In this document: one piece after another, positions 16,027 through 38,520 of the stretch
How positions within the stretch are numbered: the first letter of the stretch is position 1
Layout: every line of letters starts with the position of its first letter
The notes under the pieces: model-generated
Database searches by the model: none
The model's input: the letters and a program-made list of their open reading frames with translations, nothing else
What the model was told of the DNA's origin: nothing
Position numbers and translations under genes: made by a program
Sequence record: OQ174503.1
Length of the DNA: 64,000 nt
Direction: 5' to 3' (one strand)
Source: Escherichia phage REP4

Positions 16027-16215
16027 TTAATAATCTAATGGTAAGAGAGTACGATATATTTCAAACTTCGGACCTTTTTCATAGGCATCAAATGTTTCTG
16101 TAAATTTATTATAAGCATATGCATCTACAAATTCGAGAATGACTTGTGATACAGAAGTAGAAACATCTCCACCTTCTTTTTGAGCCACGACAATTGTTTC
16201 TAAGTAAGCTTTCAT
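16027..16215 (-). CDS. Hypothetical small protein (62 aa) between ligase and alt
   Basis: Track ORF; stop followed by GAAG-type hairpin; 4-nt overlap with gene 30. Confidence 0.5.
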   Translation of the reverse strand: MKAYLETIVVAQKEGGDVSTSVSQVILEFVDAYAYNKFTETFDAYEKGPKFEIYRTLLPLDY

Positions 16216-17675
16216 AGACCAGTTACCTCATGAAAATCACCAAATACATCTTCGAATGTATTAGCTTTAGTTTTATCTTCACGTAAACGAATCGCAATCG
16301 GAAGAAATAATTTAACGTAATCAGTGCGGCCATCAGATTTTAACCAACCGTTGCATTCGCACTCTAGAATTTTTCCAATATAATAATTTTGGTTTTCCAT
16401 AATGCGAGTACGGTCAAGTTCATGCGATTTTACACCGGCTTTATCTTTTAAGCCTGAACCAGCATTTACTTTAATTTTTCCACATTCTGATTCAAGAATA
16501 AATCCACCAGCTTTAGTAGGGTCTTTACGGTGAGGATAAATTCCTACAATTTTTAAATCAACATCAATTACTTCTTTAAATTTATAAAGATTTTTTGAAC
16601 GAGCATTTTCCCATAATCCATCGATATTTTTGAGAATAATACCTTCAAGACCTTGGTCAATATACTTTTTATAAATTACCTTAGCTTCATCTAGGTTATT
16701 TACTACCTGGTTTTCAATTAAAATTACTTTATCATATCCTGATGTCATTTGTTCTAGTTTAGAAAAACGTACATCATATTTTAAACGAAACGCTGGAAGA
16801 CCGTATATTTCTACCAACGGGACATAATCCCAGACCTGAAACTTCATGCATTGAGCTTCTTTTTCAGAAATGGTTCCTTTTAAGGATTTATTGGCGATTC
16901 CATTAGAAGCAGTACGAGATTCCGCTACTTCGGCGAATTCTTTAGCTTTACTAATTTCAGGATAAGCATCAAAAAGAAAATCTAGGCCTTCTGGTTCCTT
17001 TTTAACTTGCTCATGGTATACCAATTCGCCATCAATTAACACACCTTCTGGATGAATCTGGCGGGCTTCAGCAGTCATTTTGATTAATTCTTCCTTAAGA
17101 AGATCTAATCCTAGATATTCATTACCAGCTCGTGATAAAAGACGAACATCATCTAATTCATCGCCTCGGACTTCAGCAAAACACCGGGCTCCATCTGCTT
17201 TTAACTGTGCAAAGGCTGGAAATTTGATATTCTTACTAATGCCCTTTTCATCATAAGAACTTGCCAGCATTTGAGGTTGTTCAGGAATTAAACCTGGCCA
17301 AACTTTATTTGCAATAGATACTGAAGCACCGCATTCAAGGTCTCGCATCATAACTCGACGCAAAACTTCAACATCATCCTTTTTACCATCAGTGATATAT
17401 CCAGTTAATTCCTCAATTGCAGCATTTCCAGTCAATTTCCGAGTAGCTAACGTGAATTCAATGAAGTCAAGCATATCGGTAATAGTCAGCATTCCAAAAC
17501 TCTGGGTAGCAATACCAGGTTTAGGCCATTTCTTGATATAATACTGTAACCCACGAGAATAAGTCAGACGATATACTCGTTTAAGCAATTCATTATCTTT
17601 ATTCTTTTCAAGAATTGCTTGCTTCTGCTTAGTTGATCCAATAGATGCTATTTCATTCAGAATTTTAAGAATCAT
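16212..17675 (-). CDS. 30: gp30 ATP-dependent DNA ligase
   Basis: 487 aa; adenylation motif KADGARC; length and sequence as T4 DNA ligase. Confidence 0.97.
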   Translation of the reverse strand: MILKILNEIASIGSTKQKQAILEKNKDNELLKRVYRLTYSRGLQYYIKKWPKPGIATQSFGMLTITDMLDFIEFTLATRKLTGNAAIEELTGYITDGKKDDVEVLRRVMMRDLECGASVSIANKVWPGLIPEQPQMLASSYDEKGISKNIKFPAFAQLKADGARCFAEVRGDELDDVRLLSRAGNEYLGLDLLKEELIKMTAEARQIHPEGVLIDGELVYHEQVKKEPEGLDFLFDAYPEISKAKEFAEVAESRTASNGIANKSLKGTISEKEAQCMKFQVWDYVPLVEIYGLPAFRLKYDVRFSKLEQMTSGYDKVILIENQVVNNLDEAKVIYKKYIDQGLEGIILKNIDGLWENARSKNLYKFKEVIDVDLKIVGIYPHRKDPTKAGGFILESECGKIKVNAGSGLKDKAGVKSHELDRTRIMENQNYYIGKILECECNGWLKSDGRTDYVKLFLPIAIRLREDKTKANTFEDVFGDFHEVTGL

Positions 17676-17941
17676 TGTTCATCCTTCAGAGTTTGATTTA
17701 CAGCTCTATTATAAATCAATTCATCATTAAGCTCAGTTAAAGACCTATGATATGTAGTTCTAACTTTATTTCCTTGCATCCAGTGCTTGATATAAATGAA
17801 ACCTTGCTCTACACATTTTTTAAAAATTCGTTCGTCTTTTTGAGCTCGGAATTCTGGATTGCATCTAAAGAATTGATTTACGTGACCGTAATCACGTGTA
17901 GTATTACCTTCATTTTCATAAATAGTGTGAACGACAAACAT
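17672..17941 (-). CDS. Conserved hypothetical protein of the gene 30.x cluster (89 aa)
   Basis: Track ORF, overlapping stop/start with neighbours. Confidence 0.6.
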   Translation of the reverse strand: MFVVHTIYENEGNTTRDYGHVNQFFRCNPEFRAQKDERIFKKCVEQGFIYIKHWMQGNKVRTTYHRSLTELNDELIYNRAVNQTLKDEQ

Positions 17942-18804
17942 TAGAATGCTCCTTGGAAAATATTATCACCACTAGTAAATCTATTAAAATACCCTGCATC
18001 ACCAGGCTTAGTATAACTCCACGTATGGAATGGATTCATATGATACGGGTGTGTATAATATGGATTATATGGATGTGTATAATATGGATTATACGGATTA
18101 AATCCAGGAGTTCTCCAGGTAGTGTTCCAACGAAAAGAATCGTTTTTAACCATCTTCTCAATTACATCTTTTATAGCTTTTTCACTATCAAAACTTTCTT
18201 TATTTTCCTTCGGCGAAAAAAGCTTATTTTCTACATCATTCCATGTATAAACTCGCTGCGCAGTTTTTGGAATATTGTCACGCTCTCCTCGAGCCATCCA
18301 ATAAACAGGAACATTTAATATTTCACTCGCATGATCGCAGTGGTGAGCAAGATCGTCAATATAACAAATTACGTTATATTTCTCTTTTGCCTTTTTGAAT
18401 AACTCTTCTTTTGAAGAATCATGACCACACATCATTACTTCTGAGAAGGCACCAGGAAAAAGAGCATTCAAATTAAATTGACGATTCAACAGAGCGTCAA
18501 TAGAATCACCCAATGCTGTAACAGCTACAAAATTATAATCTTCTTTTAATTTGTTAATTACACACAGGGCATCTTTATACGGAGACAAGTAACGAATAAA
18601 ATCTGAACGATTGTATTTTTCAATTAACTTGACACCAAGTTCTTCATCACAATTAAAGAGTTTACCTGGAGAAATAAATTTCTCATCTTGGATCATTTTT
18701 AAAATATGTTCTAACGGAAGATTATATTTCTGAGCAAAATAAGGAAGGCCTGATTGCCAGCTTAAACATACTCCATCAATATCAGTTAAAATAGTAGGCT
18801 TCAT
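17941..18804 (-). CDS. HAD-superfamily phosphatase-like protein with C-terminal Tyr/Pro-rich tandem repeat (287 aa)
   Basis: N-terminal ILTDIDGV (DxDGV motif I), later YIDDLAHH (DD motif); C-terminal NPYNPYYTHPYNPYYTHPY. Confidence 0.65.
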   Translation of the reverse strand: MKPTILTDIDGVCLSWQSGLPYFAQKYNLPLEHILKMIQDEKFISPGKLFNCDEELGVKLIEKYNRSDFIRYLSPYKDALCVINKLKEDYNFVAVTALGDSIDALLNRQFNLNALFPGAFSEVMMCGHDSSKEELFKKAKEKYNVICYIDDLAHHCDHASEILNVPVYWMARGERDNIPKTAQRVYTWNDVENKLFSPKENKESFDSEKAIKDVIEKMVKNDSFRWNTTWRTPGFNPYNPYYTHPYNPYYTHPYHMNPFHTWSYTKPGDAGYFNRFTSGDNIFQGAF

Positions 18805-19265
18805 AGAGAGTCTCTTAATAGGTTTAACACATCAATAAATTCAGCTTCGGTTAGTATTGTATCATCTTTTGTTAGACCACTAGCCATGCTGTGCTTCAAA
18901 ACTTTTCCTTTCGAGGCTTGTAATGCATCACGAAAGCCCTTGTTTTGGATTGCTGCTTCAAAATATGCATTTGTGTATAATTCTTTCCATGCTGGAGAGT
19001 ATCTTGAAAATGGAACTCCAAGCCAGAACAACGTGCCACGGTCCTGAGCTCTAGCATAAGACCTTCCAGCTTGTTGGGCGGCAAGCCCGGATAACCCAAA
19101 TATACGTCTTTGCTGTTCAACATTTTTCACCTTACATCCTTGGAGGAATCCTTCGAGACCTCCAAATTGGATACTATCCATAACAAAAGGCCATTGGGCG
19201 AAATTACTTAATGCACATGATGGCCATCTAAAATTGCTTCTAATCTCTAGTTCAGACATTTTCAA
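18801..19265 (-). CDS. Conserved hypothetical protein (154 aa), possibly YbiA/NADAR-like
   Basis: Track ORF; weak resemblance SNFAQWPF...FLQGCK to the YbiA motif. Confidence 0.6.
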   Translation of the reverse strand: MKMSELEIRSNFRWPSCALSNFAQWPFVMDSIQFGGLEGFLQGCKVKNVEQQRRIFGLSGLAAQQAGRSYARAQDRGTLFWLGVPFSRYSPAWKELYTNAYFEAAIQNKGFRDALQASKGKVLKHSMASGLTKDDTILTEAEFIDVLNLLRDSL

Positions 19266-20747: not shown

Positions 20748-20834
20748 TTTATTCTCCTTTGTTTGTGTAAGATAATACTATCACAAAGGAGCCATACTGT
20801 AAACAACTTTGTGCAATCTTTGGAAAATAAAAAA

Positions 20835-20852
20835 GGACTCCCGAAGGAGTCC
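20835..20852 (-). terminator. Intrinsic terminator hairpin ggactccCGAAggagtcc
   Basis: 7-bp stem with CGAA loop followed on minus strand by a U-run. Confidence 0.5.
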
Positions 20853-20857
20853 TCAAC

Positions 20858-37531: not shown

Positions 37532-38185
37532 TTAATACTTACAAGATTTCACAGTTTCAATGAAAACACTTTTGGCTTTCTGTGAATCAATATTTAAAAT
37601 TTTTCTATAAGCTTTTAACTTTATAGAATAATTATTCCAGACTAAATTATCAGTCTGTTCATCATGTTTATCAATTATATTTAAAAACGAATCAAGCAAG
37701 ATAAACGTCTCAAACGAAATTATATTCGATTGAAGTAGTTTAAAAATATAACTTGATTGAACTTTTGGATTATATTCAAAAATTTCTTTAAAAGCAGAAA
37801 CTTCAACTTTTTTACTAAAATAATAAATGTTGCGAATATCTTCTTCAAACTTAAATTTAATTTGCTTTAAGCGTCCGATATATTCACGATAAAACACAAG
37901 TGCATCAGCGTCAGAGATGTCACCAATCCAAGCATCTTGGTTAGCAACAAGATTGCTTATAAAGATTAAAGCAAGTTCCTTTAATTTATATTTTTCTGAT
38001 AACTTCTGGAAAAAATACTTATCCCTTCGCTTTTGATAAGCGGCATCAGACACCCGCATGCACCAATTATACTTAATTACATCATACTTTCCATTCATAT
38101 GTTGTTTTATCATTAAGTATAATTTATAAACTGATTTACCATCAATGTATCTTTCACCACCAGCAGGCATGCGGAGTTTAATCAT
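37532..38185 (-). CDS. 59: gp59 helicase-loading protein
   Basis: 217 aa, MIKLRMPAGGERYIDGKSVYKLY...; T4 gp59-like. Confidence 0.95.
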   Translation of the reverse strand: MIKLRMPAGGERYIDGKSVYKLYLMIKQHMNGKYDVIKYNWCMRVSDAAYQKRRDKYFFQKLSEKYKLKELALIFISNLVANQDAWIGDISDADALVFYREYIGRLKQIKFKFEEDIRNIYYFSKKVEVSAFKEIFEYNPKVQSSYIFKLLQSNIISFETFILLDSFLNIIDKHDEQTDNLVWNNYSIKLKAYRKILNIDSQKAKSVFIETVKSCKY

Positions 38186-38520
38186 AGTAGAAAATCTAAT
38201 GTATTAGTTTTTTCACAACGAACAACAGAAGGACGTAAAAGATTTTCGTCAATAGCTTCTGACTGAATTTTTTCAATTATACCTGAAGGAATAAATTTAG
38301 CAAATTGAGTTTCAGGAATAGAATTTTCTTCTAAGAATGCTGTTGTAGCTTCAAGATAACTCATTCCAAACTCTTCTACCATTTTTTCAATAATAAATCC
38401 ATTTTCTTGGCGGTCAAGAAGTTTTGCTATTTCATCCTTTTCTTTCTTAATTGAAAGTTCTTTTTCTGAAAGACCGGTCTCATCGACCGGACGAATATCA
38501 TTTAGAGAAAACTGTGTCAT
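38182..38520 (-). CDS. 33: gp33 late-transcription co-activator
   Basis: 112 aa from ATG 38520, MTQFSLNDIRPVDETGL...; the track start is a TTG. Confidence 0.85.
   Translation of the reverse strand: MTQFSLNDIRPVDETGLSEKELSIKKEKDEIAKLLDRQENGFIIEKMVEEFGMSYLEATTAFLEENSIPETQFAKFIPSGIIEKIQSEAIDENLLRPSVVRCEKTNTLDFLL

What the first reader, a model, noticed from the sequence alone, without database searches (positions are those of the whole stretch)
17941..18804. HAD-phosphatase-like early protein with a 24-nt tandem duplication encoding a Tyr/Pro-rich tail
The 287-aa protein begins with the HAD motif I signature (ILTDIDGV) and has a downstream DD motif, suggesting a nucleotide phosphatase. Its C-terminus contains NPYNPYYTHPYNPYYTHPY, produced by an exact tandem duplication of about 24 nt near 18046-18093.
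Basis: partly seen in the sequence, partly recalled or inferred. Interest (0 to 1): 0.35.

Follow-up and report, generated by a model that had tools for sequence, protein, structure and literature searches.

The report
T4 gp30.2: nucleotidase-like enzyme, variable tail
This is the T4-phage gene 30.2, an uncharacterised but very probably active phosphatase related to 5'(3')-deoxyribonucleotidases. It carries a floppy Pro/Tyr/Trp-rich tail, and the 24-base duplication in that tail is an ordinary length polymorphism shared by about 60 related phages.

Summary
Window 17941-18804 (-) encodes a 287-aa protein with DIDGV (D8, D10), DD (150-151) and NPYNPYYTHPYNPYYTHPY (236-254). The 24-nt units are 22/24 identical, not exact: both differences are synonymous and a 20-nt core is exact. 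Shuffles give no such repeat.

The gene is the ortholog of T4 30.2 in a Tequatrovirus, lying between 30.3 (AdfN, an anti-DarT NADAR) and 30.1/DNA ligase, with overlapping stops and starts.

Residues 233-287 are predicted disordered and evolve fast: dN/dS 0.2-0.45 against ≤0.05 in the core, with repeated in-frame indels. Phage D5505 has one repeat unit; about 57 records share the two-unit allele. More distant homologs have no tail or other tails, which end in conserved short motifs.

Some GenBank records already call this gene HAD or deoxyribonucleotidase. Interest is modest.

The parts
17941..18804 (-). Gene 30.2 ortholog, 287 codons plus stop
   Evidence: ORF list. It is 94% identical to T4 gp30.2, which is annotated 'conserved hypothetical'. 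phrog_420 matches at E 3e-89.
18220..18804 (-). HAD-fold catalytic domain, residues 1-195
18775..18783 (-). HAD motif I, D8-I-D10: nucleophile Asp and Asp+2 acid/base
   Evidence: Invariant in 90 homologs and in 35 tail-less homologs. It sits at the end of strand 4-7 in the model.
18547..18759 (-). Helical insert, residues 16-86: a C1-type cap plus the first core helix. It includes W16-Q17-S18-G19-L20.
   Evidence: Helices 16-26, 32-40, 46-49, 54-65, 68-72 and 77-86. WQSGL aligns with FESGL of deoxyribonucleotidase 2jao.
18517..18519 (-). HAD motif II, T96
   Evidence: At least 90% conserved. It lies at the end of strand 91-96.
18409..18411 (-). HAD motif III, K132
   Evidence: Invariant in 90, 35 and 140 sequences.
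18352..18357 (-). HAD motif IV, D150-D151
   Evidence: At least 90% conserved. It lies at the end of strand 145-150.
18109..18219 (-). Linker with one helix (residues 207-220; 18145-18186)
   Evidence: The AF2 model shows helix 207-220, and the 211-220 block has mean pLDDT 86.
17944..18108 (-). Predicted disordered Tyr/Pro/Asn/His-rich tail, residues 233-287
   Evidence: pLDDT is 37-59 for the blocks after residue 220, and residues 242-245 and 251-287 are below 50. A second model from a tail-class alignment also gives low confidence. dN/dS is 0.2-0.45 against 0.05 or less in the core.
18043..18099 (-). Repeat array NPY + NPYYTHPY (18090-18067) + NPYYTHPY (18066-18043)
   Evidence: TRF period 24, 2.3 copies, 90% match. 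Codon map and exact 20-mers at 18093-18074 and 18069-18050. Absent from 100 shuffles.
17944..17994 (-). C-terminal short motifs GYFNRFT (17974-17994) and NIFQGAF (17944-17964)
   Evidence: NIFQGAF is invariant in 10 Tequatrovirus alleles. GYFNRFT is a degenerate form of GxGIEYLxxQPT, which 16 of 53 long-tailed homologs share.
18801..19265 (-). Upstream neighbour 30.3 (AdfN, NADAR). Its stop overlaps the 30.2 start (ATGA).
   Evidence: PF08010 matches at E 2.9e-69. Function is from bioRxiv 10.1101/2024.07.11.602962 and PMC11125620.
16212..17941 (-). Downstream neighbours 30.1 (17672-17941, DUF3045) and DNA ligase gp30 (16212-17675), with overlapping stops and starts

Best explanation
**What it is.** The gene is the T4 30.2 ortholog. 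It encodes a Mg2+-dependent phosphomonoesterase of the HAD superfamily, from a divergent and largely phage-borne branch related to the 5'(3')-deoxyribonucleotidase (NT5C) family.

**Inferred mechanism (from the HAD paradigm).**
- Asp8 attacks the phosphate and forms an aspartyl-phosphate.
- Asp10 acts as general acid/base.
- Thr96 and Lys132 hold the phosphate.
- Asp150 and Asp151 hold Mg2+.
- A helical C1-type cap (about residues 16-72) closes over a small substrate, most likely a deoxy- or ribonucleoside monophosphate. Trp16 takes the place of the base-stacking Phe of the deoxyribonucleotidases.

**Expression.** It is made early in infection from the translationally coupled 30.3-30.2-30.1-30 cluster.

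**Tail.** Residues 196-287 form one helix followed by a disordered Pro/Tyr/Trp-rich tail that ends in short conserved motifs. The tail most likely tethers or docks the enzyme to a partner that is not identified.

**Duplication.** The 24-nt duplication arose by slippage or unequal exchange among degenerate 9-nt (N/H)PY units. It adds one NPYYTHPY unit to this spacer and probably has little functional consequence.

**Shown versus inferred.** Shown: the fold, motif conservation, family links, the polymorphism, and early expression of the T4 ortholog. Inferred: the substrate, the role of the tail, and the physiological role.
For: - **Motifs.** D8, D10, K132, R108, N111, R172, W16 and S18 are invariant. 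T96, D150 and D151 are at least 90% conserved.
- **Family.** A profile search of 1.84 billion representatives finds 1383 relatives at E<=1e-3. Of 140 scanned, 39 hit Pfam NT5C (PF06941), the most frequent family. P0200 (32.6 bits) and P0242 (36.8 bits) exceed its cut-off of 24.8 bits. P0242 in turn finds T4-like phages by tblastn. In the BFVD viral library, several matches beyond the close homologs are named 5' nucleotidase.
- **Expression.** The T4 ortholog has early RNA and middle protein.
- **Tail.** It is low-confidence in two models. 53 of 90 homologs have tails of 40 aa or more, enriched 2.5-fold in Pro and Trp, with recurring terminal motifs. Tail dN/dS is below 1 and all indels are in frame.
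- **Duplication.** D5505 carries one unit in a tail that otherwise aligns without amino-acid difference. TRF finds a 9-nt substructure.
Against: - The protein itself matches no Pfam or NCBIfam model. The NT5C link is transitive, and the direct PDB profile hit is only E=0.05.
- No T4 nucleotidase activity has been assigned to this gene. I found no paper that studies it.
- A dNMP-destroying enzyme looks counterproductive for a phage that recycles host dNMPs.
- No partner for the tail is known, and a class-specific AF2 run showed no docking.
Confidence: 0.6

Rival explanations
1. It is a counter-defence enzyme. By dephosphorylating dNMPs (dAMP, m6-dAMP, dIMP) released when the phage degrades host DNA, it removes precursors or triggers of nucleotide-sensing immunity. 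T5 Dmp does this against Kongming. The fast-evolving tail would be the arms-race interface. This is the same chemistry as the main explanation with a specific physiological role.
For: - T5 Dmp has HAD motifs (WDLDGT, MIDDH). Its dNMPase activity blocks Kongming by depleting dAMP (10.1101/2024.12.20.629578).
- PUA-Cal-HAD is triggered by m6-dAMP produced by T-even host-DNA degradation (PMC12871103).
- 30.2 is translationally coupled to the proven anti-DarT gene 30.3/AdfN and lies near alt.
- It is expressed early.
- The tail varies while the core stays 98-100% identical.
Against: - T2 carries 30.2 yet is sensitive to PUA-Cal-HAD and escapes only through denA loss.
- The Kongming paper text does not mention T4-like phages.
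- gp30.2 is not detectably related to Dmp beyond motif I (hhalign probability 2.7%).
- Tail dN/dS is below 1, so positive selection is not shown.
Confidence: 0.15
2. It is a polynucleotide 3'-phosphatase: an end-healing enzyme that prepares nicked or broken DNA (or RNA) for the adjacent DNA ligase.
For: - 30.2 lies next to or near an ATP-dependent DNA ligase gene in divergent T4-like phages. One contig has the order inverted, with ligase upstream.
- There is a weak PHROG hit to polynucleotide kinase (E 1.2e-3).
Against: - The model has a roughly 60-residue helical cap between motifs I and II.
- T4-like phages already encode PNK with its own HAD phosphatase (L010, L013).
- The ligase linkage may simply be inherited T4 gene order. 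In Rhodobacter phage RcJoli and the jumbo phage Phosso the homolog is not next to a ligase.
Confidence: 0.1
3. It is a HAD phosphatase or mutase acting on a non-nucleotide metabolite, such as a sugar phosphate, phosphoglycolate or a cofactor precursor.
For: - One source names a homolog 'FMN phosphatase YigB'.
Against: - The only specific Pfam family reached by relatives is NT5C. The rest are generic HAD models or DUF2608.
- The motif-I extension DGVxxxWQSGL matches deoxyribonucleotidase DGVLADFESGL.
- The DxD motif with Asp+2 argues against a dehalogenase (established HAD knowledge).
Confidence: 0.12

Closest known systems
T4 gp30.2 (UniProt P32275), 'conserved hypothetical protein'
   Same: It is the ortholog. 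It sits in the same position between 30.3 and 30.1/ligase, and 196 of 199 N-terminal residues are identical.
   Different: - T4 is 278 aa with the other tail haplotype (NPYNPYHPYQTHPFQTWNYIKPGGIEYLYNRPT), with no NPYYTHPY unit as such.
- The window allele has two units and a degenerate GDAGYFNRFT motif.
5'(3')-deoxyribonucleotidase family (Pfam NT5C PF06941; mammalian cdN/mdN such as 2jao, 2i7d, 1mh9; bacterial 3bwv)
   Same: - HAD core plus helical C1 cap.
- DxD, T, K and DD motifs.
- DGVxxx[F/W][E/Q]SGL after motif I.
- Best target TM-scores, and 22% identity to 3bwv.
- 39 of 140 relatives hit the Pfam model.
   Different: - The window protein does not hit PF06941.
- The direct profile hit to PDB is E=0.05.
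- It has a roughly 90-residue C-terminal extension that the roughly 170-200-residue solved deoxyribonucleotidase chains lack.
- Activity is untested.
Phage T5 Dmp, deoxynucleoside-5'-monophosphatase (anti-Kongming)
   Same: - Early phage protein with HAD motifs I (DLDGT) and IV (DD).
- dNMP phosphatase activity that depends on D22.
- It is a functional analogue of what is proposed here.
   Different: - No family-level similarity (hhalign probability 2.7%).
- No Pfam hit either.
- No P/Y-rich tail.
T4 polynucleotide kinase 3'-phosphatase domain (1ltq, 5uj0)
   Same: - HAD fold and DxD chemistry, from the same phage group.
   Different: - PNK's phosphatase is cap-less, fused to a kinase, and acts on polynucleotide ends.
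- gp30.2 has a helical cap and no kinase domain.

Membership tests
HAD superfamily | Rossmann-like alpha/beta core shared with solved HAD enzymes | tested here: met
HAD superfamily | Four catalytic motifs: DxD, T/S, K, DD | tested here: met
   D8, D10, T96, K132, D150 and D151 sit at the ends of strands 1, 2 and 4 and before helix 133. They are invariant or at least 90% conserved.
HAD superfamily | Mg2+-dependent phosphoryl transfer through an aspartyl-phosphate | not testable with these tools
   This needs an enzyme assay with a D8N control.
NT5C / 5'(3')-deoxyribonucleotidase (PF06941) | Scores above the Pfam gathering threshold | tested here: not met
   The window protein has no Pfam hit even at E<=1. 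Relatives P0200 (32.6 bits) and P0242 (36.8 bits) pass the 24.8-bit cut-off, and 39 of 140 hit at E<=1e-3.
NT5C / 5'(3')-deoxyribonucleotidase (PF06941) | Helical C1 cap inserted after motif I, with an aromatic residue four positions after DxDG[VT] | tested here: met
   Helices span residues 16-72. W16 aligns with the Phe of DGVLADFESGL in 2jao. That this Phe stacks the base is from my own knowledge of cdN/mdN structures.
NT5C / 5'(3')-deoxyribonucleotidase (PF06941) | Hydrolyses 5'- and 3'-(deoxy)nucleoside monophosphates | not testable with these tools
   This needs a biochemical assay.
T5 Dmp-type deoxynucleoside-5'-monophosphatase | Sequence or profile similarity to T5 Dmp | tested here: not met
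   hhalign of A2 against Dmp gives probability 2.7% and aligns only the 34 residues around motif I.
Polynucleotide kinase-phosphatase (PNKP) HAD domain | Cap-less phosphatase domain, usually fused to a P-loop kinase | tested here: not met
   A cap is present. There is no kinase domain or PF25109 hit. Only a weak PHROG hit, E 1.2e-3.

The most novel reading that the evidence does not exclude
gp30.2 is an early counter-defence enzyme of T4-like phages. It would clear dNMP-type immune triggers or precursors produced by host-DNA breakdown. Its interchangeable, indel-prone disordered tail, which ends in several distinct conserved motif classes, would be a targeting or evasion module that is swapped among phages during conflict with the host.
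Probability: 0.12. Interest if true: 0.6.

Novelty: new member of a known kind. Interest (0 to 1): 0.3.

Why it matters
T4 is the reference phage, yet 30.2 is still annotated as hypothetical although it is conserved across T4-like and other phages: 1383 representative relatives and 1407 phage records. Assigning it to a deoxyribonucleotidase-like branch gives a directly testable activity.

The question is timely. dNMPs released by T-even host-DNA degradation are now known to feed bacterial immune signalling (Kongming, PUA-Cal-HAD), and an unrelated HAD-type dNMPase of T5 is a proven counter-defence.

The conserved catalytic core joined to a fast-changing disordered tail with conserved end motifs may offer a small model for how phage enzymes acquire docking modules. 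The duplication itself is a routine polymorphism.

Tried and rejected
- **Direct family searches.** Pfam, NCBIfam and single-sequence PDB searches with the protein returned nothing useful.
- **Literature.** Searches for gp30.2 or gene 30.2 found no functional study. Only the neighbour 30.3 (AdfN) has been characterised.
- **Tail docking on the core.** A second AF2 run used a T4-type sequence and a tail-class-specific alignment. The tail stayed at pLDDT 30-40 with only a 4-residue helix at EYLY, so there is no evidence for intramolecular docking.
- **Sliding-clamp binding.** gp33 in this window ends in TLDFLL (38199-38182, -). The 30.2 tail (…DNIFQGAF) has no such motif, and no other ORF in the window shares the tail motifs.
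- **Relation to T5 Dmp.** Both carry HAD motifs I and IV, but no family-level similarity was detectable.
- **Ligase linkage.** It holds in T4-like phages but not in Rhodobacter or jumbo-phage homologs. It is probably inherited gene order.
- **Promoter and terminator scan.** Counts were no higher than in shuffles, so the 'early' claim rests on the T4 omics data.
- **Exact-pattern scans of IMG/VR.** Scans for the one-unit and two-unit junctions found nothing. Copy-number counts come from the GenBank phage collection instead.

Full report
**1. Observation**

The minus-strand ORF 17941-18804 encodes 287 aa starting MKPTILTDIDGV. D8 and D10 form a DxD motif, YIDDLA places D150 and D151, and NPYNPYYTHPYNPYYTHPY occupies residues 236-254, window 18099-18043.

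Tandem Repeats Finder reports a period-24 array at 18043-18098 with 2.3 copies, 90% matches and no indels. It also reports a weaker period-9 array, consensus ATATGGATT, which encodes N-P-Y on the coding strand.

The two 24-nt units are 22/24 identical. Both differences are synonymous (His CAT/CAC, Pro CCA/CCG). The longest exact repeat is 20 nt, at 18093-18074 and 18069-18050. This 20-mer occurs nowhere else in the window even with two mismatches, and in none of 100 shuffles.

**2. Identity and context**

The window is a Tequatrovirus. The gene matches 617 phage records by megablast, up to 99.3% identity. It is the ortholog of T4 30.2, annotated 'conserved hypothetical protein'.

| Window coordinates (-) | Gene | Note |
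|---|---|---|
| 18801-19265 | 30.3 | PF08010 |
| 17941-18804 | 30.2 | this finding |
| 17672-17941 | 30.1 | DUF3045 |
| 16212-17675 | 30 | DNA ligase |

Every junction overlaps (ATGA or TAATG), which suggests translational coupling.

gp30.3 has recently been shown to be AdfN, a NADAR DNA ADP-ribosylglycohydrolase that neutralises DarTG1 (bioRxiv 10.1101/2024.07.11.602962; PMC11125620). In the T4 omics study, 30.2 is classed as early at the RNA level and middle at the protein level (PMC9697503 supplements 4 and 6).

**3. The catalytic domain**

- **Direct family searches.** Pfam and NCBIfam give no hit. PHROGs places the protein in phrog_420, function unknown.
- **Homologs.** A word-indexed search returned 100 homologs. 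A core of about 200 residues is conserved, while total lengths range from 176 to 347 aa.
- **Conservation.** In a 90-sequence alignment D8, D10, W16, S18, R108, N111, K132 and R172 are invariant. T96, D150 and D151 are at least 90% conserved (the same in 35 tail-less sequences).
- **Model.** AlphaFold2 on this alignment gives mean pLDDT 82.7, above 93 for residues 1-190. The motif residues sit at the ends of strands 4-7, 91-96 and 145-150 and before helix 133-142. A helical insert spans residues 16-86 between motifs I and II, which is a C1-type cap plus the first core helix.
- **Foldseek against PDB.** There are 112 matches at E<=1e-3. All of the top hits are HAD enzymes. The 5'(3')-deoxyribonucleotidases (2jao, 3bwv, 2i7d, 4yih, 1mh9) have the highest target TM-scores (0.63-0.70) and the lowest rmsd.
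- **PDB profile search.** The top hit is mouse cytosolic deoxyribonucleotidase 2jao at E=0.05, aligning DGVxxxWQSGL with DGVLADFESGL.
- **Library-wide profile search.** In 1.84 billion representatives there are 1383 relatives at E<=1e-3. Of 140 scanned, 39 match Pfam NT5C (PF06941). The other families hit are the generic HAD models PF00702 (13) and PF13419 (11), and DUF2608 (2). P0200 and P0242 exceed the NT5C gathering score.
- **Spread in phages.** P0242 finds 1407 phage records by tblastn. These include the T4-likes, jumbo phages and Rhodobacter siphophages, whose records call the protein 'phosphatase'. In BFVD, several matches beyond the close homologs are named 5' nucleotidase.

I conclude that this is an active HAD phosphatase on a divergent, largely phage-borne branch next to the NT5C family. 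The DxD motif indicates phosphoryl transfer rather than dehalogenation (established HAD knowledge). The substrate is inferred, not shown.

**4. The tail**

- **Disorder.** After the core come a linker, one helix (207-220) and a segment with pLDDT below 50 (242-245, 251-287).
- **Length variation.** Across 499 phage records, the region homologous to window 17941-18210 ranges from 231 to 339 nt, against 270 here.
- **Ten Tequatrovirus alleles.** The N-terminal 199 residues are 98-100% identical. The tail differs by in-frame indels and falls into two haplotypes: the window/T2 type …HTWSY.KPGDAGYFNR[FL]T and the T4 type …QTWNYIKPGGIEYLYNRPT. The final NIFQGAF is invariant.
- **Independent indels.** D5505 has a tail that aligns with this one without amino-acid difference but carries one NPYYTHPY unit. 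CT01 carries an independent duplication of about 30 residues. Shfl2, T2 and ECML-134 have an extra Ser-Gly.
- **Origin of the first unit.** It ends in CATCCATAT, a variant seen in ECML-134-type alleles. This fits unequal exchange or slippage among degenerate 9-nt (N/H)PY units better than a recent clean duplication.
- **Frequency.** About 57 of the 60 records that match an 81-nt probe carry the two-unit allele.
- **Selection.** Nei-Gojobori dN/dS is 0-0.05 in the core and 0.2-0.45 in residues 233-287, from small counts. Constraint is relaxed but not absent.
- **Wider family.** 53 of 90 homologs have tails of 40 aa or more, enriched about 2.5-fold in Pro and Trp. The rest have short tails or none. 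Long tails end in recurring motifs: GxGIEYLxxQPT (16), L[RK]AYY (12) and others such as DYxLLNKVxAND. The window allele is the only member of its class lacking the near-invariant Glu of the IEY motif.

The tail therefore looks like a disordered appendage carrying short linear motifs. A tether or docking role is my inference, and no partner is known.

**5. Function in the phage**

Linkage to DNA ligase holds in divergent T4-like contigs, including one with the order inverted. It does not hold in Rhodobacter or jumbo phages, so I treat it as inherited gene order.

Phage T5 Dmp, an early dNMP phosphatase, also has HAD motifs. It counters the Kongming system by depleting dAMP, but it is not detectably related to gp30.2.

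m6-dAMP released by T-even host-DNA degradation triggers the PUA-Cal-HAD system. However, T2 carries 30.2 and is still sensitive to that system.

A counter-defence role is thus attractive but unsupported.

**6. Novelty**

The gene is known, and some GenBank records already label it 'haloacid dehalogenase-like hydrolase domain-containing protein', '5'-3' deoxyribonucleotidase' or '5' nucleotidase deoxy pyrimidine cytosolic type protein' (source names). No experimental work on it was found.

It is a new, divergent member of a known kind. The duplication is an ordinary polymorphism.

Noticed in passing
window 18801-19265 (-): The upstream gene is 30.3 (PF08010). It was recently characterised as AdfN, a NADAR DNA ADP-ribosylglycohydrolase that counters the DarTG1 defence. 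Its stop overlaps the 30.2 start (ATGA). The ORF tool starts it at a TTG two codons upstream of the ATG implied by the 459-nt T4 annotation.
   Followed up: partly
window 18896-19123 (-): A 75-aa out-of-frame ORF lies inside 30.3. It corresponds in position and size to T4's annotated 30.3' ('internal translation in a different reading frame').
   Followed up: no
L014:124-858 (-) (phage T5 dmp): T5 Dmp carries HAD motif I (VMIWDLDGT, D22) and a DD motif (MIDDH), yet it hits no Pfam model and shows no profile similarity to gp30.2. It appears to be an unclassified HAD-type dNMP phosphatase.
   Followed up: partly
L006 (Shigella phage CT01) 701-1633 (-): The CT01 30.2 allele carries an independent tandem duplication of about 30 residues in the tail (NHLYHPYQTHPFQTWNYIKPGGIEYLYNRP x2). 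This duplicates the conserved GIEYLYNRP motif itself.
   Followed up: partly
window 17974-17994 (-): The window/T2-type tail haplotype (GDAGYFNRFT) has lost the near-invariant Glu and the Pro of the GxGIEYLxxQPT motif, which T4-type and Klebsiella/Citrobacter-phage homologs keep. Synonymous divergence between the two haplotypes is about 0.5 in the tail against about 0.15 in the core, which suggests an old, recombining dimorphism.
   Followed up: partly
window 20775-20854 (-): A terminator-like hairpin (20854-20833) is followed by a TTTACA-17-TAGTAT promoter-like site (20803-20775) upstream of the 30.8-like ORF. This may be the start of the transcription unit that contains 30.2. The overall promoter count was no higher than in shuffles.
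   Followed up: no
window 38182-38199 (-): A 116-aa reading frame (stop to stop) ending in TNTLDFLL is gp33, with its sliding-clamp-binding C-terminus. It was used only as a comparison for the 30.2 tail.
   Followed up: no
P0014, P0082, P0154, P0221 (homologs): Several homologs have unusual architectures. P0014 is a 30.2-30.1 (DUF3045) fusion. P0082 has a Cys-rich C-terminal extension. P0154 (591 aa) and P0221 (660 aa) carry the domain at the C-terminus of larger proteins whose N-terminal parts have no Pfam match.
   Followed up: no
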